From NCBI GenBank assembly GCA_027320085.1, contig DAHVLZ010000019.1:87912-151911 (forward strand): DNA of 64,000 nt, written 5' to 3'. Numbering within the stretch: the stretch's first letter is position 1; every line of letters begins with the position of its first letter. The position numbers and the translations under genes are program-made. The stretch is from Pseudomonadota bacterium (lineage in GTDB: Bacteria > Pseudomonadota > Gammaproteobacteria > JAKAQQ01). This document shows positions 51,526 through 61,846 of this stretch, in pieces. The notes beneath the pieces were generated by a model, which was not told the origin of the DNA, made no database searches, and saw nothing but the letters and a program-made list of their open reading frames with translations.

Positions 51526-53086
51526 CTAGGGGGTGGAACCCGCATCGTAGTCAACAGGGGTGGTCTGGTCCACACCCCGCGTGGCCGGCCAGCGGGACAA
51601 CAACAGGGTTCCCAGGATGGAGACGATGAAGTTGAGGAAAACGGCCACGATGGCGATGTAGACCGGGATGGACTCGGGTCCCCAGTGAAGGACCGTGACG
51701 GCGCTGGTGAAATGGTTGGCCATCATGAGACCGGTGCCCGCCACCATGCCGAGCATCCATCCCGCGATCAGGGCCCAGCGGTGGAACCAGCCCGTGTAAA
51801 GCCCGGCGGCGATACTGGGCAAGAGCTGGATGATCCAGATTCCGCCCAGTAACTGGAAGTCAATGGCGTAGTGGAATGGGATCGCGAGGACGAAAAGCAG
51901 GGCCCCGGCCTTGATCAGGAGCGAACTCCATTTCGCGACCCGGGTTTCGGTGGCAGGTGTGGCATCCGGGTTGACGAAGGCCCGGTAGAGATTGCGCGTG
52001 AACAGGTTGGCGGCGGCAATCGACATGATGGCGGCCGGGACGAGCGCTCCGATGGCGATGGCGGCGAGTGCCACAGCGGCGAACCAGGAGGGGAAGTTGG
52101 TGAGCAGGAGGGCGGGGACGGCAAAGTTGGTGCCATAGCGGTGAAAGGCCGGGGCGAAGGCCGCCCGGGTGAGCGCCTTCCGGTCGGCCATGGCCATGAA
52201 CCCGAGCAAGCTGAGCAAGCCGAGAATGAAGCTGTAAGCCGGCAGGTACGTCATGTTGCGGCGGATCACGTCGGGATTTTTCGCGCCGAGCACCCCGGTG
52301 GTCGCATGGGGGTAGAGAAAGAGGGCGAGTGCGGATCCCAGGGCGAGTGTGATGAACGCACTGTCCGGACCCAGGGAATGGGCCGCGGGGGGTTCGAGGA
52401 GCAACCGGCCCGGAGGGACGGATGCGAAGATCTTTCCGTAGCCCCCAAGATGCATGGGGATGATCACGATGCAGGCGATTGCCGTGATGTAGATGAGGGC
52501 ATCCTTGACGACGGCGATCAGCGCAGGGGCCCGGAGACCGCTCGTGAACGTATAGGCGGCCAGCAAACCGAAGGCAATGATCAATGGAAAATCGGCCCAG
52601 GGCCCGTGCAGGGGGAAGCCCAGGGCAGCCAGGACGACCTCGAGACCGATCAGCTGGAGCGCAATGTAGGGCAGGGTCGCGAGGATGCCCGTCACGGCGA
52701 CGAGCAAGGCCAAGGTCCGACTGCCGTAACGTCCCTCCACGAAATCCGCCGTCGTGACGTAGCCGTGACGGTGGCTGACCTGCCAGAGTCGGGGCAGGGC
52801 GACCAGGGCGAGGGGAAAGGCCATGATGGTGTAGGGAAGGGCGAAATAGCCCAAGGCGCCGGTCCCGAAGATCAGGGCGGGTACGGCTATGAAGGTATAG
52901 GCCGTGTAGAGGTCTCCGCCAAGCAGGAACCAGGTCAGCCAGCCCCCGAGACGGCGGCCGGCCAGCCCCCATTCCTCGAGCCGGTTCAGGGGGGCGGCTC
53001 GCCACCGCGCAGCCAGAAAACCGAGAACGGTGACCAGGACGAAGAGGCCAATGAAGATGAGGAGCGGAACCGGCGCTGGGCTCATC
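51526..53086 (-). CDS. Sodium:solute symporter family transporter.
   Basis: ORF 51526..53238 trimmed to MSPAPVPLLIFIGLFVLV. The longer form overlaps the upstream GT2 gene. About 13 transmembrane segments are predicted. The ATGA overlap with the upstream gene suggests translational coupling. Confidence 0.7.
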
Positions 53087-54110
53087 GCGAATCTTTCTTC
53101 CGGGATCGGGGCTTCCGGGTCAGGTAGGTCACGAGCCCGTTGAAGAGACCGGAGAGGGGAACCCAGGCGAGCAGGTAGGTATAAAAGAAGGGAATGCCCC
53201 AGAGGGTGGGGTGACGGTGATTGAACACCGGAATCCACAGGCTGGCCAGCATGGGGACGAGGAGCAGGAGGGCCCAGTATCCCCGCCGTGACCGGCTGAC
53301 GTCGTTGCTCCCGTCTCCCGGGGAGGGAGGGGTGACTCCCGCTTCGATGCCTCCCGGCCGGGGAGGATCCGGTGGCCGTTTCGGCGGCCGGAAAAAAAAC
53401 CGGAACCGGGCCCCGATGGCCAGGCCGATGGCGAGGCTGTCCCAGACCGGACGAAAGTAACTGGGCCGGGCGTCCCGGGGATAGCGGCCGGAGACTCGGA
53501 CTCCGGTCATGGGGATTCCGAGCCGTCCCAGCATGATCAGGACCTCACTCTCGAAAGGGAAGCCCCGGGCATGAGGGGGATGGTCTGTGATGGCGGAAAC
53601 CGCCCCTGCCGGGTAAACCCGGAAACCCGACTGCGTATCCTCGAGCGGGAGACCGGCCAGTCGTGAAATGAAGAAGTCGGCCACCTGGTTGGCCCCGGCG
53701 CGGATTCTTGGAGCCGACGCCTTGTCCCGCGTGCCGAGGATCAGGGCGCGGGGGTTGCGGGTCGCAACCGCCAAAAGGCGCGGGATTTCCCCCGGATCAT
53801 GCTGGCCGTCCCCGTCTACGGTGACCACCCATCGGTAGCCCTGCTCGTGGGCGAACTCGAAGCCGGTCAGGAGTGCGGCCCCCTTCCCCAACCGTCGGGC
53901 GTGCCGGATCACCCGGGCTCCGTGCGTCGTGGCGATTTGCGCCGAGCCGTCCTGTGATCCGTCGTCGACCACGAGGCAGGGATGGCCCAGGGCCGAAATC
54001 CGGTCCAGGAGTGCAGCCAGGGTCCGGCTCTCGTCCAATGCCGGGACGAGCACCAGAACGGCCGGGCCTGTCACGCCTGGGGTTGCCACGGTCGGGTGGG
54101 GGCTGCTCAT
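53082..54110 (-). CDS. Family 2 glycosyltransferase with a C-terminal membrane anchor.
   Basis: VVDDGSQDGS...VVTVDGDGQHDP is a GT2 DxD pattern. Hydrophobic helices lie at the C-terminus. Confidence 0.75.
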   Translation of the reverse strand: MSSPHPTVATPGVTGPAVLVLVPALDESRTLAALLDRISALGHPCLVVDDGSQDGSAQIATTHGARVIRHARRLGKGAALLTGFEFAHEQGYRWVVTVDGDGQHDPGEIPRLLAVATRNPRALILGTRDKASAPRIRAGANQVADFFISRLAGLPLEDTQSGFRVYPAGAVSAITDHPPHARGFPFESEVLIMLGRLGIPMTGVRVSGRYPRDARPSYFRPVWDSLAIGLAIGARFRFFFRPPKRPPDPPRPGGIEAGVTPPSPGDGSNDVSRSRRGYWALLLLVPMLASLWIPVFNHRHPTLWGIPFFYTYLLAWVPLSGLFNGLVTYLTRKPRSRKKDSR

Positions 54111-54883
54111 GCCGGGGAAGGTCCGTCGGGGGACGACAGGTGAAGGGTGAGATAGTGCTCCGCCGAAAGCGGAAACGTCCCCTCCAACAGGGTGGTCCCG
54201 GTGAGTTTGCCGGTACCCGAAAACGGACCAGGATAGGGGGGGGCTCCCGGATCCGGGATTTCACGCATGCGGCCCGTTTCGATTTCGAAGCTGAGACATG
54301 GCCCGGGGCCGGATTCCGAACCACCAGCACGATCCTGCGATCCGAGGATGAAAGCCACCGCCCGGGCTGGGGGCGATCCATAGATCAACCGGAAGCGATC
54401 GGGGACCGTCATCTCGTAATAAATGTAGAGCACCGGCGTTTCGGGTTCAGTCTGGATTTGTCCAAGGGCGGTGAGAAAGCCCATCGCAAAGGAAAAGGGG
54501 CCTGCGGCGACGGCGCGGCACGGATTCCGGGATTGTCCCGCGATGGACCAGTAGCCCGCCGCCGTATTGTGCACGGAGTTGTGGAAGAGAACCGGGGACA
54601 GCGCCAAGGGTTGTTCCGCGAGAACGCGGCAAATCTGGTCGGTGATCTCGAGTTCACCGAGTGCCGAGGAGAAAACGCAGGCCAGCGTCTGGGAAGGACA
54701 CCGGGCATTCTCCAAGGCCTGTTCGGCCGCAAGTCCGCACAGCCGGGCGGCGCGGGTGGCGTGACGGAGCGAGGCGCGTGTGAAGCTCACCGGTTCCTCG
54801 ATCTCCGCCCCCTCCGTCCGCCCATCGGGCTGTTCGCAATCCGTGATAGACCCCCAGCCGAAAAGCCGGACCTGTTCCTTCAT
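54107..54883 (-). CDS. Beta-ketoacyl synthase N-terminal-domain protein, a chain-length-factor-like partner of the adjacent KS.
   Basis: MKEQVRLFGWGSIT...FHNSVHNTAAGYWSIA. It has no active-site Cys context and overlaps the KS gene by 4 nt. Confidence 0.6.
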   Translation of the reverse strand: MKEQVRLFGWGSITDCEQPDGRTEGAEIEEPVSFTRASLRHATRAARLCGLAAEQALENARCPSQTLACVFSSALGELEITDQICRVLAEQPLALSPVLFHNSVHNTAAGYWSIAGQSRNPCRAVAAGPFSFAMGFLTALGQIQTEPETPVLYIYYEMTVPDRFRLIYGSPPARAVAFILGSQDRAGGSESGPGPCLSFEIETGRMREIPDPGAPPYPGPFSGTGKLTGTTLLEGTFPLSAEHYLTLHLSSPDGPSPA

Positions 54884-61277: not shown

Positions 61278-61545
61278 ACAGGCTGAGCTGGTTGAGGTTG
61301 CGGAAAATTTCTTGCGATTCCGCCTGATCCGCCTGAATCTGGATGCCGTACCGCTTGGACAGTTCCAGGGACAGCTCCAGGGCATCGATGGAATCGAGTT
61401 CGAGTCCCTGGTCTCCGAACAAGGGCTCTTGCGGGTCGATCGCCTCAGGCGGTCGTCTCAGCTTGACGGCCTGAACCAGTACGGTGGCGATTTCACGCTG
61501 CCAATCGGTGAGCGGGGCAGGGCGGGTCTTGTCGGCCGTCGTCAT
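61252..61545 (-). CDS. Acyl carrier protein (phosphopantetheine-binding).
   Basis: GLELDSIDALELSLELSKRYGI fits the DSL-type phosphopantetheine attachment site. The start is uncertain. Confidence 0.65.
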   Translation of the reverse strand: MTTADKTRPAPLTDWQREIATVLVQAVKLRRPPEAIDPQEPLFGDQGLELDSIDALELSLELSKRYGIQIQADQAESQEIFRNLNQLSLYVAQNRTR

Positions 61546-61846
61546 TTCATCGGTTTCCTCGGACTGAACAACAAGGGGAAAAGCCGACTTGGTCATGGGG
61601 CGCAATCACATCCAGGGCAGGGTAGGAGCCGACTGCTTCGGGCAACGGAGCCCTGCACATCCCCGTCCCTGCTTCAGCCTAGCACAGGATCCCGAAGGCG
61701 ACAATTCTTGCACAGTTCTTGCACAGTTGCGCGGGAACGGAGGGGATGCGGCCGGGTCGGTTGCCGGACGCGCGTGTCCGTATCCTGTGCTTGAGCATGC
61801 CTTTCGCATCAAAATCCAATCACGCTTGTGTTATCATTCAAATGCT

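What the first reader, a model, noticed from the sequence alone, without database searches (positions are those of the whole stretch)
53082..61605. Eight-gene aryl-polyene-like specialised lipid synthesis and export cluster
The contiguous, largely overlapping genes on one strand encode an ACP, an AMP-ligase, an LPLAT acyltransferase, a LolA-like carrier, an MMPL exporter, a KS, a CLF-like KS partner and a GT2. This matches the core of aryl-polyene or xanthomonadin-type clusters (starter activation, iterative elongation, transfer to a lipid anchor, glycosylation, export to the outer membrane). It lacks the ammonia-lyase, ketoreductase and dehydratase genes usually present. Either those functions are borrowed from fatty acid synthesis, or this is a distinct acyl-lipid pathway. 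The sodium:solute symporter downstream is translationally coupled to the GT2 (ATGA overlap).
Basis: partly seen in the sequence, partly recalled or inferred. Interest (0 to 1): 0.55.

Follow-up and report, generated by a model that had tools for sequence, protein, structure and literature searches.

The report
Aryl-polyene-type lipid operon lacking reductive genes
An uncultured gammaproteobacterium carries a real, selectively maintained eight-gene operon related to the widespread aryl-polyene and xanthomonadin outer-membrane pigment clusters, but it lacks the ketoreductase and dehydratase genes those pathways need, so its product may not be an ordinary polyene pigment.

Summary
Eight co-directional, mostly overlapping genes lie on the minus strand at 53082-61605. 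They encode an ApeE-type ACP, an ApeH-type AMP-ligase, an LpxL-like acyltransferase, a LolA_3 carrier, an MMPL/RND exporter, an ApeO-type ketosynthase (KS), an ApeC-type chain-length factor (CLF) and a GT2 glycosyltransferase.

The KS groups with xanthomonadin-like and ApeO ketosynthases, not with FabF or ApeR. The "LPLAT" and the GT2 match the two halves of E. coli ApeJ, not ApeD.

Profile searches find no ketoreductase (KR), dehydratase (DH), thioesterase, ApeG/N/D/B, chorismatase or halogenase anywhere in the 64 kb window or in two sister lineages. In 40 related loci, every one that carries the LolA-like export gene beside KS-CLF also carries a DH. A Nitrospira locus has the same gene order with DH and KR between the CLF and the GT2.

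All eight genes are under purifying selection (dN/dS 0.07-0.36). A relative shows an empty site, with DUF3311-mctP directly next to pyrG. The symporter is therefore a native neighbour and not part of the pathway. Here its small DUF3311 subunit has become fused to the GT2.

Verdict: a reduced variant of a known cluster family. Where the reductive steps come from, and what the product is, remain unresolved.

The parts
61252..61545 (-). Acyl carrier protein of the ApeE type (97 aa). The longest ORF reaches 61605. ATG 61545 has a GAGGA Shine-Dalgarno sequence upstream.
   Evidence: PF00550, and NF006617 at 86.7 bits against a cutoff of 70. 40.5% identical to E. coli ApeE. The DSxD motif serine, Ser52, is retained.
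59859..61277 (-). Carboxylic acid:ACP ligase of the ApeH type (AMP-binding, 472 aa).
   Evidence: PF00501 and PF13193. The best NCBIfam model is the PYP-type 4-coumarate ligase TIGR02372, far below its cutoff. 28% identical to ApeH. E 4.6e-116 against a profile of the cluster ligases. The A10 lysine K449 is kept. The P-loop is altered (G->Q164).
58921..59862 (-). LpxL-like acyltransferase (313 aa), homologue of the C-terminal half of ApeJ.
   Evidence: PF03279. Matches ApeJ aa 249-549 at 26% identity, E 2e-22; no match to ApeD. All 13 family-conserved residues are kept, including H139. All LpxL NCBIfam models score far below their cutoffs.
58322..58924 (-). LolA-like carrier (ApeL type, 200 aa) with a signal-peptide-like N terminus.
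   Evidence: PF19574 LolA_3, 53.6 bits. E 2.4e-21 against an ApeL-seeded profile. The N terminus MKRAGPILIPGLVLLALGTARA was read directly from the sequence.
56043..58343 (-). MMPL/RND exporter (ApeM type, 766 aa).
   Evidence: PF03176. 25% identical to ApeM. E 1.4e-151 against an ApeM-seeded profile.
54880..56040 (-). Elongating ketosynthase (ApeO type, 386 aa).
   Evidence: NF006618 at 439.5 bits against a cutoff of 407. 6qsp_A ApeO at 231 bits is the best solved-structure match. 39% identical to ApeO over the full length. C155, H280, H314 and K309 are retained.
54107..54883 (-). Chain-length-factor-like KS partner (ApeC type, 258 aa).
   Evidence: PF13723, 80 bits. 6qsp_B ApeC, E 2e-8. 31% identical to ApeC.
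53329..54110 (-). GT2 glycosyltransferase domain and linker (about aa 1-260 of the 342-aa product), homologue of the N-terminal half of ApeJ.
   Evidence: PF00535, 79.7 bits. 32% identical to ApeJ aa 9-232. 26 of 27 family-conserved residues are kept, including D50 and D99/D101. The best NCBIfam model is the polyprenyl-phospho-GalNAc synthase PpgS, below its cutoff.
53082..53328 (-). DUF3311 membrane segment fused in frame to the GT2. By origin it is the small partner of the downstream MctP permease, not a pathway component.
   Evidence: PF11755 at aa 282-334, 40.9 bits against a cutoff of 30. It is a separate 93-aa gene in L007/L008 and a 79-aa gene in the empty-site relative L097. It is fused in L093 as well.
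51526..53085 (-). MctP monocarboxylate permease. It is co-transcribed but is a native neighbour and not part of the cluster.
   Evidence: NF046076 at 676 bits against a cutoff of 625. It is present beside pyrG without the lipid genes in L097. It is frameshifted in L007/L008.

Best explanation
This is a reduced member of the aryl-polyene (APE) / xanthomonadin cluster family, carried by an uncultured gammaproteobacterium.

Inferred mechanism, by homology to the Ape proteins:
1. The ApeH-like ligase adenylates a carboxylic acid starter, probably an aromatic acid such as a hydroxybenzoate, and loads it on the ApeE-like ACP.
2. The ApeO/ApeC-like KS-CLF heterodimer extends it with malonyl units.
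3. The split ApeJ pair builds a sugar-bearing lipid head group (GT2) and acylates it with the ACP-bound chain (LpxL-like acyltransferase).
4. The ApeM-like RND pump and the periplasmic ApeL-like carrier take the lipid to the outer membrane.

Shown here: gene identities, operon structure, family placement of the KS, loss of DH and KR relative to the nearest complete architecture, purifying selection, and the boundaries of the cluster.

Inferred: starter, sugar, acceptor and destination.

The keto-reduction and dehydration steps are not encoded in the operon or within 64 kb. My best guess is that dedicated paralogues elsewhere in the genome supply them (about 0.45 within this explanation). The product would then still be an aryl-polyene-type pigment lipid. 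The MctP/DUF3311 genes are bystanders.
For: - Domain and family assignments.
- ApeO and ApeC are the best solved-structure matches.
- One-to-one BLASTP correspondences to E. coli CFT073 ApeE, H, J-C, M, O, C and J-N. ApeL was found by profile.
- The KS nests in the xanthomonadin-like clade in the NJ tree.
- Nitrospira locus L018 has the order ACP-ligase-AT-LolA-MMPL-KS-CLF-DH-KR-GT2. This is the window order plus DH and KR.
- dN/dS is 0.07-0.36 for all eight genes against two sister lineages, with dS 0.3-1.25, similar to the flanking genes.
- Catalytic and family-conserved residues are largely kept.
- Split clusters, in which KS-CLF sits apart from the other genes, exist in relatives L006, L021 and L022. 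KR and DH elsewhere in the genome is therefore plausible.
- Published roles of the Ape proteins: PMC8253772; bioRxiv 10.1101/2020.12.19.423268.
Against: - No KR, DH, thioesterase, ApeG, ApeN, ApeD or ApeR homologue is found in 64 kb, nor in L007 or L093.
- In the 40 sampled relatives, every one of the 29 loci with the LolA-like export gene next to KS-CLF also has an ApeP-type DH. In split clusters of Xanthomonadales, KR and DH sit beside the MMPL, LolA and acyltransferase genes. Their absence here, beside a complete export and attachment module, is atypical and weakens the 'elsewhere in the genome' idea.
- The rest of the genome could not be searched.
- The ligase has 17 of 74 family-conserved positions changed, including one in the P-loop. 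The starter may therefore differ from the hydroxybenzoates.
- No chemistry is available.
Confidence: 0.6

Rival explanations
1. The pathway truly works without KR and DH. The KS-CLF-ACP trio acts as a minimal polyketide synthase. It makes an unreduced beta-keto or short poly-beta-keto chain on the starter, possibly cyclising to a pyrone or resorcinol. The ApeJ-like pair attaches this chain to a glycolipid, which is then exported. This would be a new lipid class derived from the APE machinery.
For: - KR and DH are absent from 64 kb and from two sister lineages, while all eight genes stay under purifying selection.
- The deletion is clean: CLF and GT2 overlap by ATGA exactly where L018 has DH and KR.
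- The KS clade sits on a long branch, at most 50% identical to any other KS among 5.8 billion proteins.
- The CLF is the fastest-evolving gene (dN/dS up to 0.36; 13 of 34 conserved positions changed).
Against: - No cyclase, aromatase or other tailoring gene is present.
- I found no APE-type KS-CLF reported to run without KR and DH in the papers read here.
- The long branch may simply reflect an isolated, poorly sampled lineage.
- The rest of the genome is unseen.
Confidence: 0.2
2. The reductive steps are borrowed from housekeeping fatty acid synthesis (FabG, FabZ/FabA, perhaps FabI). The product would be a polyene or, if FabI also acts, a saturated omega-aryl fatty acyl lipid.
For: The operon is maintained by selection without its own KR and DH. 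Malonyl-ACP must in any case come from primary metabolism.
Against: - In X. campestris, loss of the dedicated KR FabG3/XanH abolishes the pigment. It is not rescued by FabG1, FabG2 or E. coli FabG (PMC6859482).
- In E. coli, individual deletions in most ape core biosynthesis genes give pigment-less strains despite an intact FAS (PMC8253772).
Confidence: 0.12
3. The operon is a decaying remnant of a complete cluster and no longer makes a product.
For: Ten of the 18 E. coli ape functions are missing. The ligase P-loop and several MMPL and CLF conserved positions are changed.
Against: - All eight ORFs are intact in three lineages that have diverged to dS of about 0.8-1.25, with dN/dS 0.07-0.36.
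- The neighbouring mctP did acquire a frameshift in one lineage, so decay would be visible at this divergence.
- The KS catalytic Cys-His-His-Lys, the ACP serine, the acyltransferase histidine and the GT2 Asp motifs are kept.
Confidence: 0.05
4. It is a lipid A or phospholipid remodelling locus, suggested by the LpxL-like acyltransferase with kdsA nearby, and not a polyketide-type pathway.
For: PF03279 is the lipid A late acyltransferase family. kdsA lies just beyond pyrG.
Against: - All LpxL/LpxP/HtrB NCBIfam models score 17-45 bits against cutoffs of 209-540.
- The protein matches the ApeJ C-terminal domain.
- kdsA-ftsB-pyrG are conserved neighbours even where the cluster is absent.
- A KS-CLF, a dedicated ACP and an ACP ligase have no role in lipid A remodelling.
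Confidence: 0.03

Closest known systems
Xanthomonadin-like / compact proteobacterial APE clusters, for example locus L018 of a Nitrospira MAG and many Gamma- and Betaproteobacteria (L014-L019, L024, L031, L033, L041, L046)
   Same: - Same gene families in the same order: ACP, AMP-ligase, LpxL-like acyltransferase, LolA_3, MMPL, KS, CLF, GT2.
- KS identities are 41-48%, and the window KS nests in this clade.
   Different: - Those loci carry an ApeP-type dehydratase and an ApeQ-type ketoreductase between the CLF and the GT2.
- Many also carry ApeG, PlsC/ApeD, the XanB2/FkbO chorismatase, a halogenase, PAP2 and a polysaccharide deacetylase.
- None of these is present here.
E. coli CFT073 / Xenorhabdus doucetiae aryl polyene (ape) cluster, apeA-R
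   Same: - Homologues of ApeE (40%), ApeH (28%), ApeJ (both halves, 26% and 32%), ApeL (by profile), ApeM (25%), ApeO (39%) and ApeC (31%).
- Same logic as published: starter loading, KS-CLF elongation, sugar-lipid attachment, export (PMC8253772; 10.1101/2020.12.19.423268).
   Different: - Lacks ApeA, B, D, F, G, I, K, N, P, Q and R.
- ApeJ is split into two genes.
- The CLF is adjacent to the KS rather than distant.
- The gene order differs.
Xanthomonas pig / xan cluster (xanthomonadin)
   Same: - KS-CLF-GT2 contiguity is also seen in Xanthomonadales loci (L023, L037, L039, L040, L042, L049).
- The pathway uses an ACP ligase for a hydroxybenzoate starter (PMC6859482, citing Cao et al. 2018).
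   Different: - No XanB2 chorismatase, no FAD halogenase-like gene, no XanH/FabG3 KR and no dehydratase.
- In Xanthomonadales the KR and DH lie in the divergent MMPL-LolA-acyltransferase operon.
Housekeeping FabF/FabB ketosynthases of type II fatty acid synthesis
   Same: Same thiolase-fold KS with a Cys-His-His triad.
   Different: - The TIGR03150 fabF model scores 199 bits against a cutoff of 494, whereas NF006618 passes its cutoff.
- FabF-type loci form a separate clade.
- The KS is paired with a CLF and a dedicated ACP and ligase, not with fabG-acpP.

Membership tests
Aryl polyene (ape) BGC as defined by Grammbitter et al. (core genes KS apeO/R, ACP apeE/F, CLF apeC, DH apeI/P, KR apeQ, transporter apeM; bioRxiv 10.1101/2020.12.19.423268) | ApeO-type elongating ketosynthase | tested here: met
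   NF006618 above its cutoff. Best PDB match is 6qsp_A. 39% identical to ApeO over the full length. Clade placement. Cys-His-His-Lys retained.
Aryl polyene (ape) BGC | ApeC-type chain length factor (PF13723) | tested here: met
   PF13723 at 80 bits. 6qsp_B at E 2e-8. 31% identical to ApeC.
Aryl polyene (ape) BGC | Dedicated ACP (ApeE/ApeF) | tested here: met
   One ACP only. NF006617 above its cutoff. 40.5% identical to ApeE. No second ACP.
Aryl polyene (ape) BGC | ApeQ-type ketoreductase | tested here: not met
   Three SDR/KR profiles, seeded with ApeQ, the L009 KR and the L018 KR, give no hit at E<=1e-2 among all ORFs of at least 50 aa in the 64 kb window, L007 or L093. The rest of the genome was not searchable.
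Aryl polyene (ape) BGC | ApeI/ApeP-type dehydratases | tested here: not met
   Profiles seeded with ApeI, ApeP and the L009 and L018 DHs give no hit in the window, L007 or L093. They hit 34 of 40 related loci.
Aryl polyene (ape) BGC | ApeM RND transporter with an ApeL LolA-like carrier | tested here: met
   PF03176 and PF19574. Profile E-values of 1.4e-151 (ApeM) and 2.4e-21 (ApeL). ApeN (DUF3261) and ApeG are absent.
Aryl polyene (ape) BGC | Second, initiating ketosynthase ApeR | tested here: not met
   The ApeR-seeded profile hits only the single KS ORF and, weakly, the CLF. ApeR is reported as possibly dispensable in E. coli (PMC8253772).
Aryl polyene (ape) BGC | Product is an aryl polyene chromophore esterified to a glycolipid | not testable with these tools
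   Needs chemistry (LC-UV/MS) on the organism or on a heterologous host.
Xanthomonadin cluster | XanB2/FkbO-type chorismatase supplying 3- or 4-hydroxybenzoate | tested here: not met
   No FkbO profile hit in the window, L007 or L093. The profile hits 12 of 40 relatives.
Xanthomonadin cluster | FAD-dependent halogenase-like gene and dedicated KR (XanH/FabG3) | tested here: not met
   No hits. The KR is essential in X. campestris (PMC6859482).
Housekeeping FAS II FabF/FabB | Scores above the fabF/fabB equivalog cutoffs and sits in a fabG-acpP-fabF context | tested here: not met
   TIGR03150 at 199 bits against a cutoff of 494, and FabB NF005935 at 102 bits against 630. The gene context is a specialised operon. 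The KS falls in a clade separate from FabF.
Lipid A late acyltransferase LpxL/LpxM/LpxP | Scores above the LpxL-family cutoffs | tested here: not met
   The best LpxL-family models score 17-36 bits against cutoffs of 248-540. The protein instead aligns with the ApeJ C-terminal domain.

The most novel reading that the evidence does not exclude
The APE machinery has been cut down to a KS-CLF-ACP-ligase core that works with no ketoreductase or dehydratase at all. It would make an unreduced aryl-beta-keto, pyrone-type or resorcinol-type acyl group. The split ApeJ pair would attach this group to a sugar lipid, and the ApeL/ApeM system would export it. The result would be a previously unseen class of outer-membrane polyketide glycolipid in an uncultured gammaproteobacterial lineage.
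Probability: 0.2. Interest if true: 0.7.

Novelty: new variant of a known kind. Interest (0 to 1): 0.42.

Why it matters
[quoted passage not shown] All characterised members need dedicated KR and DH enzymes.

A selectively maintained version keeps loading, elongation, attachment and export but has lost the reductive loop. Two readings follow. Either the family tolerates supply of these enzymes from elsewhere in the genome, which matters for cluster-detection rules that require them. Or the scaffold has been repurposed for a different lipid.

The locus also gives a clean natural split of ApeJ into its glycosyltransferase and acyltransferase halves. That split could help to dissect the poorly understood attachment steps.

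Tried and rejected
- Searching the 64 kb window and sister loci for KR, DH, TE, ApeG/N/D/B/A/R, chorismatase, halogenase, PAP2 and deacetylase with profiles built from E. coli, Halothiobacillus and Nitrospira references found nothing. A single-query tblastn also found nothing.
- The zinc-type quinone oxidoreductase downstream (50133-51149, ER-like) was considered as a hidden reductive enzyme. 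It is rejected because it is absent from L007 and L097. An ER cannot replace a KR or DH.
- The enoyl-CoA hydratase beyond ftsB was considered. It is rejected because it is a conserved neighbour even at the empty site.
- MctP as importer of the starter acid was considered. It is rejected as a required part: the site is empty of lipid genes in L097, mctP is frameshifted in L007/L008, and it is absent from all other related clusters.
The rest of the genome could not be examined.
Taxonomy rests on PyrG similarity only.
- The promoter/terminator scan and the Rfam search gave nothing informative for the operon.
- L048 looked at first like a second reduced cluster. It has DH genes and many frameshifts.

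Full report
**Observation**

The span 53082-61605 holds eight co-directional ORFs on the minus strand. Start-codon inspection gives a tightly packed operon. In transcription order:
- ACP, 61545-61252.
- AMP-ligase, 61277-59859, overlapping the ACP by 26 nt.
- Acyltransferase, 59862-58921, ATGA junction.
- LolA-like protein, 58924-58322, ATGA junction.
- MMPL, 58343-56043, overlapping the LolA-like gene by 22 nt.
- KS, 56040-54880, after a 2-nt spacer.
- CLF-like protein, 54883-54107, ATGA junction.
- GT2, 54110-53082, ATGA junction.
- A symporter, 53085-51526, ATGA junction.

- PF00550 and NF006617 (above cutoff) for the ACP.
- PF00501/PF13193 for the ligase.
- PF03279 for the acyltransferase.
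- PF19574 (LolA_3) for the carrier.
- PF03176 for the MMPL exporter.
- PF00109/PF02801 and NF006618 (439.5 bits, cutoff 407) for the KS.
- PF13723 for the CLF.
- PF00535 for the GT2.

Identical proteins in the same order occur in five independent assemblies, including NCBI GCA_021828425.1.

**Organism**

PyrG, encoded divergently next to the operon, is at most 70% identical to proteins from named taxa. All of these are Gammaproteobacteria: Chromatiales, Ectothiorhodospiraceae, Thioalkalivibrio and Steroidobacteraceae. The host is therefore an uncultured, poorly sampled gammaproteobacterium. It encodes kdsA, which fits a Gram-negative cell with an outer membrane.

**Which family**

- The best solved-structure relative of the KS is ApeO of Xenorhabdus (6qsp_A, 231 bits), followed by 7f28_B (228 bits). 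The next best KS structure scores 166 bits and named FabF-type structures 163 bits or less.
- The best solved-structure relative of the CLF is ApeC (6qsp_B, E 2e-8).
- I fetched the E. coli CFT073 ape cluster and compared proteins:
  - ACP to ApeE, 40.5%.
  - Ligase to ApeH, 28%.
  - MMPL to ApeM, 25%.
  - KS to ApeO, 39% over the full length (ApeR only 34%, partial).
  - CLF to ApeC, 31%.
- The PF03279 "LPLAT" aligns with the C-terminal half of ApeJ (aa 249-549, E 2e-22), not with ApeD. The GT2 aligns with the N-terminal half of ApeJ (aa 9-232). ApeJ is therefore split into two genes here.
- The LolA-like protein matches an ApeL-seeded profile at E 2.4e-21.
- In an NJ tree of 86 ketosynthases, the window KS and its 78% relative sit on a long branch inside the xanthomonadin-like clade. 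They are separate from E. coli ApeO, ApeR and the FabF-type sequences.

**Relatives and architecture**

Among 5.8 billion proteins, only four KS clusters are 78% or more identical to the window KS (the window's own cluster, 100%, plus clusters at 88%, 86% and 78%). One further hit (P0005, 584 aa, 480 bits) has no identity reported. Identity otherwise drops to 51% or less.

The 88% lineage (L093) and the 78% lineage (L007/L008) have exactly the same eight genes in the same place.

A scan of GTDB species genomes returned 80 loci. I screened them with tblastn and with profile HMMs.

The commonest layout in Gamma- and Betaproteobacteria, and in a Nitrospira MAG (L018), is ACP, ligase, LpxL-like AT, LolA_3, MMPL, KS, CLF, ApeP-type DH, ApeQ-type KR, GT2. 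This is the window's order plus a DH and a KR exactly where the window has the CLF/GT2 ATGA junction.

Of 40 loci in the KS clade:
- 34 carry an ApeP-type DH and 30 carry an ApeQ-type KR in the fetched DNA.
- All 29 that have the LolA-like export gene next to KS-CLF also have a DH.
- The six without KR or DH are short contigs (L013, L032, L035) or split clusters holding little more than KS-CLF (L006, L021, L022).

The window clade is the only case in this sample of a complete loading, elongation, attachment and export set without KR and DH.

**What is missing**

I built profiles from E. coli ApeA, B, D, G, I, K, N, P, Q and R, from the Halothiobacillus KR, DH, FkbO, halogenase, PlsC, PAP2 and deacetylase, and from the Nitrospira DH and KR. 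None gives a hit at E<=1e-2 among all ORFs of at least 50 aa in the 64 kb window, L007 or L093.

Pfam annotation of the larger ORFs elsewhere in the window shows housekeeping genes and mobile or defence genes only. There is no ammonia-lyase.

**Is it functional?**

Nei-Gojobori dN/dS against L093 and L007 is 0.07-0.36 for all eight genes, with dS 0.3-1.25. This is comparable to the flanking ECH, ftsB and PNPOx genes.

Key residues are retained:
- KS Cys155, His280, His314 and Lys309.
- ACP Ser52.
- All 13 conserved acyltransferase positions.
- 26 of 27 conserved GT2 positions.

The ligase keeps the A10 lysine but has an altered P-loop. The CLF and MMPL are more divergent.

By contrast, the neighbouring mctP acquired a frameshift in the 78% lineage, seen in two assemblies. 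A decaying remnant is therefore unlikely.

**Boundaries and the symporter**

The downstream gene is MctP (676 bits, cutoff 625). The C terminus of the GT2 product (aa 282-334) is a DUF3311 domain.

DUF3311 is a separate small gene in L007/L008. It is also a separate gene in a more distant relative, L097 (PyrG 79%). There DUF3311-mctP lies directly beside pyrG, with the same flanking genes on both sides and no lipid genes at all.

The eight genes are therefore an insertion or deletion between pyrG and DUF3311-mctP. The permease pair is a native neighbour. The GT2::DUF3311 fusion is a secondary event shared by the window and the 88% lineage.

Another 79% relative (L096) has different APE-type genes at this site: a CLF-like protein only 34% identical to the window's, plus PAP2, a halogenase and a FabV-like reductase.

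**Mechanism**

By homology with the published ape pathway (PMC8253772; bioRxiv 10.1101/2020.12.19.423268), the steps would be:
1. The ligase loads a carboxylic acid starter on the ACP.
2. KS-CLF elongates it.
3. The GT2 and the LpxL-like acyltransferase, together equivalent to ApeJ, build a sugar-phospholipid head group and acylate it with the ACP-bound chain.
4. The RND pump and the LolA-like carrier export the lipid.

The reductive loop is the open point. Genetic evidence argues against simple borrowing from FAS. Xanthomonas FabG3/XanH is essential and is not replaced by FabG1, FabG2 or E. coli FabG (PMC6859482). In E. coli, individual deletions in most ape core biosynthesis genes abolish the pigment (PMC8253772).

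I therefore rank the possibilities as follows:
- Dedicated KR and DH elsewhere in the genome is the most likely single answer. Split clusters exist in relatives.
- A truly KR/DH-less pathway with a different, unreduced product is a serious minority reading.

The whole genome could not be searched with the tools available.

**Verdict**

- The 'LPLAT' corresponds to the ApeJ acyltransferase half, not to ApeD.
- The symporter is a bystander whose small DUF3311 subunit is fused to the GT2.
- Borrowing the reductive steps from FAS is disfavoured.

This is a new, reduced variant of a well-known cluster family, of moderate interest.

Noticed in passing
window 53082-53328 (minus strand): The GT2 is fused in frame to a DUF3311 domain, which is the small membrane partner normally encoded as a separate gene just upstream of MctP-type permeases. 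The fusion is shared with the 88% lineage (L093). The two are separate genes in the 78% lineage (L007/L008) and in L097.
   Followed up: yes
L007 and L008, about 13265-13299: mctP changes reading frame (frame 1 to frame 2) in two independent assemblies of the 78% relative. It is probably a pseudogene there, while the eight lipid genes upstream are intact.
   Followed up: partly
L097 7669-11698: This is an empty-site relative (PyrG 79%). DUF3311-mctP directly abuts pyrG with the same flanks on both sides (OYE, PNPOx, amino acid permease, Tricorn on one side; kdsA, ftsB, ECH, Smr on the other). This defines the eight-gene cluster as an indel.
   Followed up: yes
L096 345-4947: A second 79% relative has different APE-type genes next to pyrG: an orphan CLF-like protein (34% identical to the window's) with no adjacent KS, plus PAP2, a FAD halogenase and a FabV-type enoyl reductase. 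The site upstream of pyrG seems to have received such genes more than once.
   Followed up: partly
L092 31213-32889 (E. coli CFT073 apeJ) compared with window 58921-59862 and 53329-54110: E. coli ApeJ is a fusion of a GT2 domain and an LpxL-like acyltransferase domain. In this window and in most xanthomonadin-like loci the two halves are separate genes. In Nitrospira L018 the GT2 is instead fused to a GT1-type domain (718 aa).
   Followed up: partly
window 50133-51149 (minus strand): A PIG3-type NAD(P)H quinone oxidoreductase, similar to PKS enoyl-reductase domains, lies downstream of mctP in the window and in L093. It is absent from L007 and L097, so it is a lineage-specific insertion.
   Followed up: partly
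window about 17600-26292: A low-GC stretch (0.54-0.58) carries a tyrosine integrase (25080-26171) next to tRNA-Val (26218-26292), a DUF4145 protein, a type I restriction-modification HsdM (21258-22889) with an HsdS-like gene (23580-24227), and several ORFs with no family. It is probably a genomic island integrated at the tRNA.
   Followed up: no
window 28654-35094: tRNA-Ala and tRNA-Glu are followed by an AbiEii/AbiEi toxin-antitoxin pair (29393-30927, minus strand) and a 1360-aa protein whose only recognised domain is HTH_3 (31012-35094).
   Followed up: no
window about 14200-14800 (from L011 13054-13670): A small Gp49-like / HI1420-type HTH pair, a probable toxin-antitoxin module, lies downstream of a radical SAM/DUF4070 gene (11110-13029).
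   Followed up: no
P0005: This is a 584-aa KS-family hit of intermediate score (480 bits, between the 78% and 50% relatives) on a 2.5 kb contig. It may represent an intermediate lineage that could date the loss of DH and KR.
   Followed up: no
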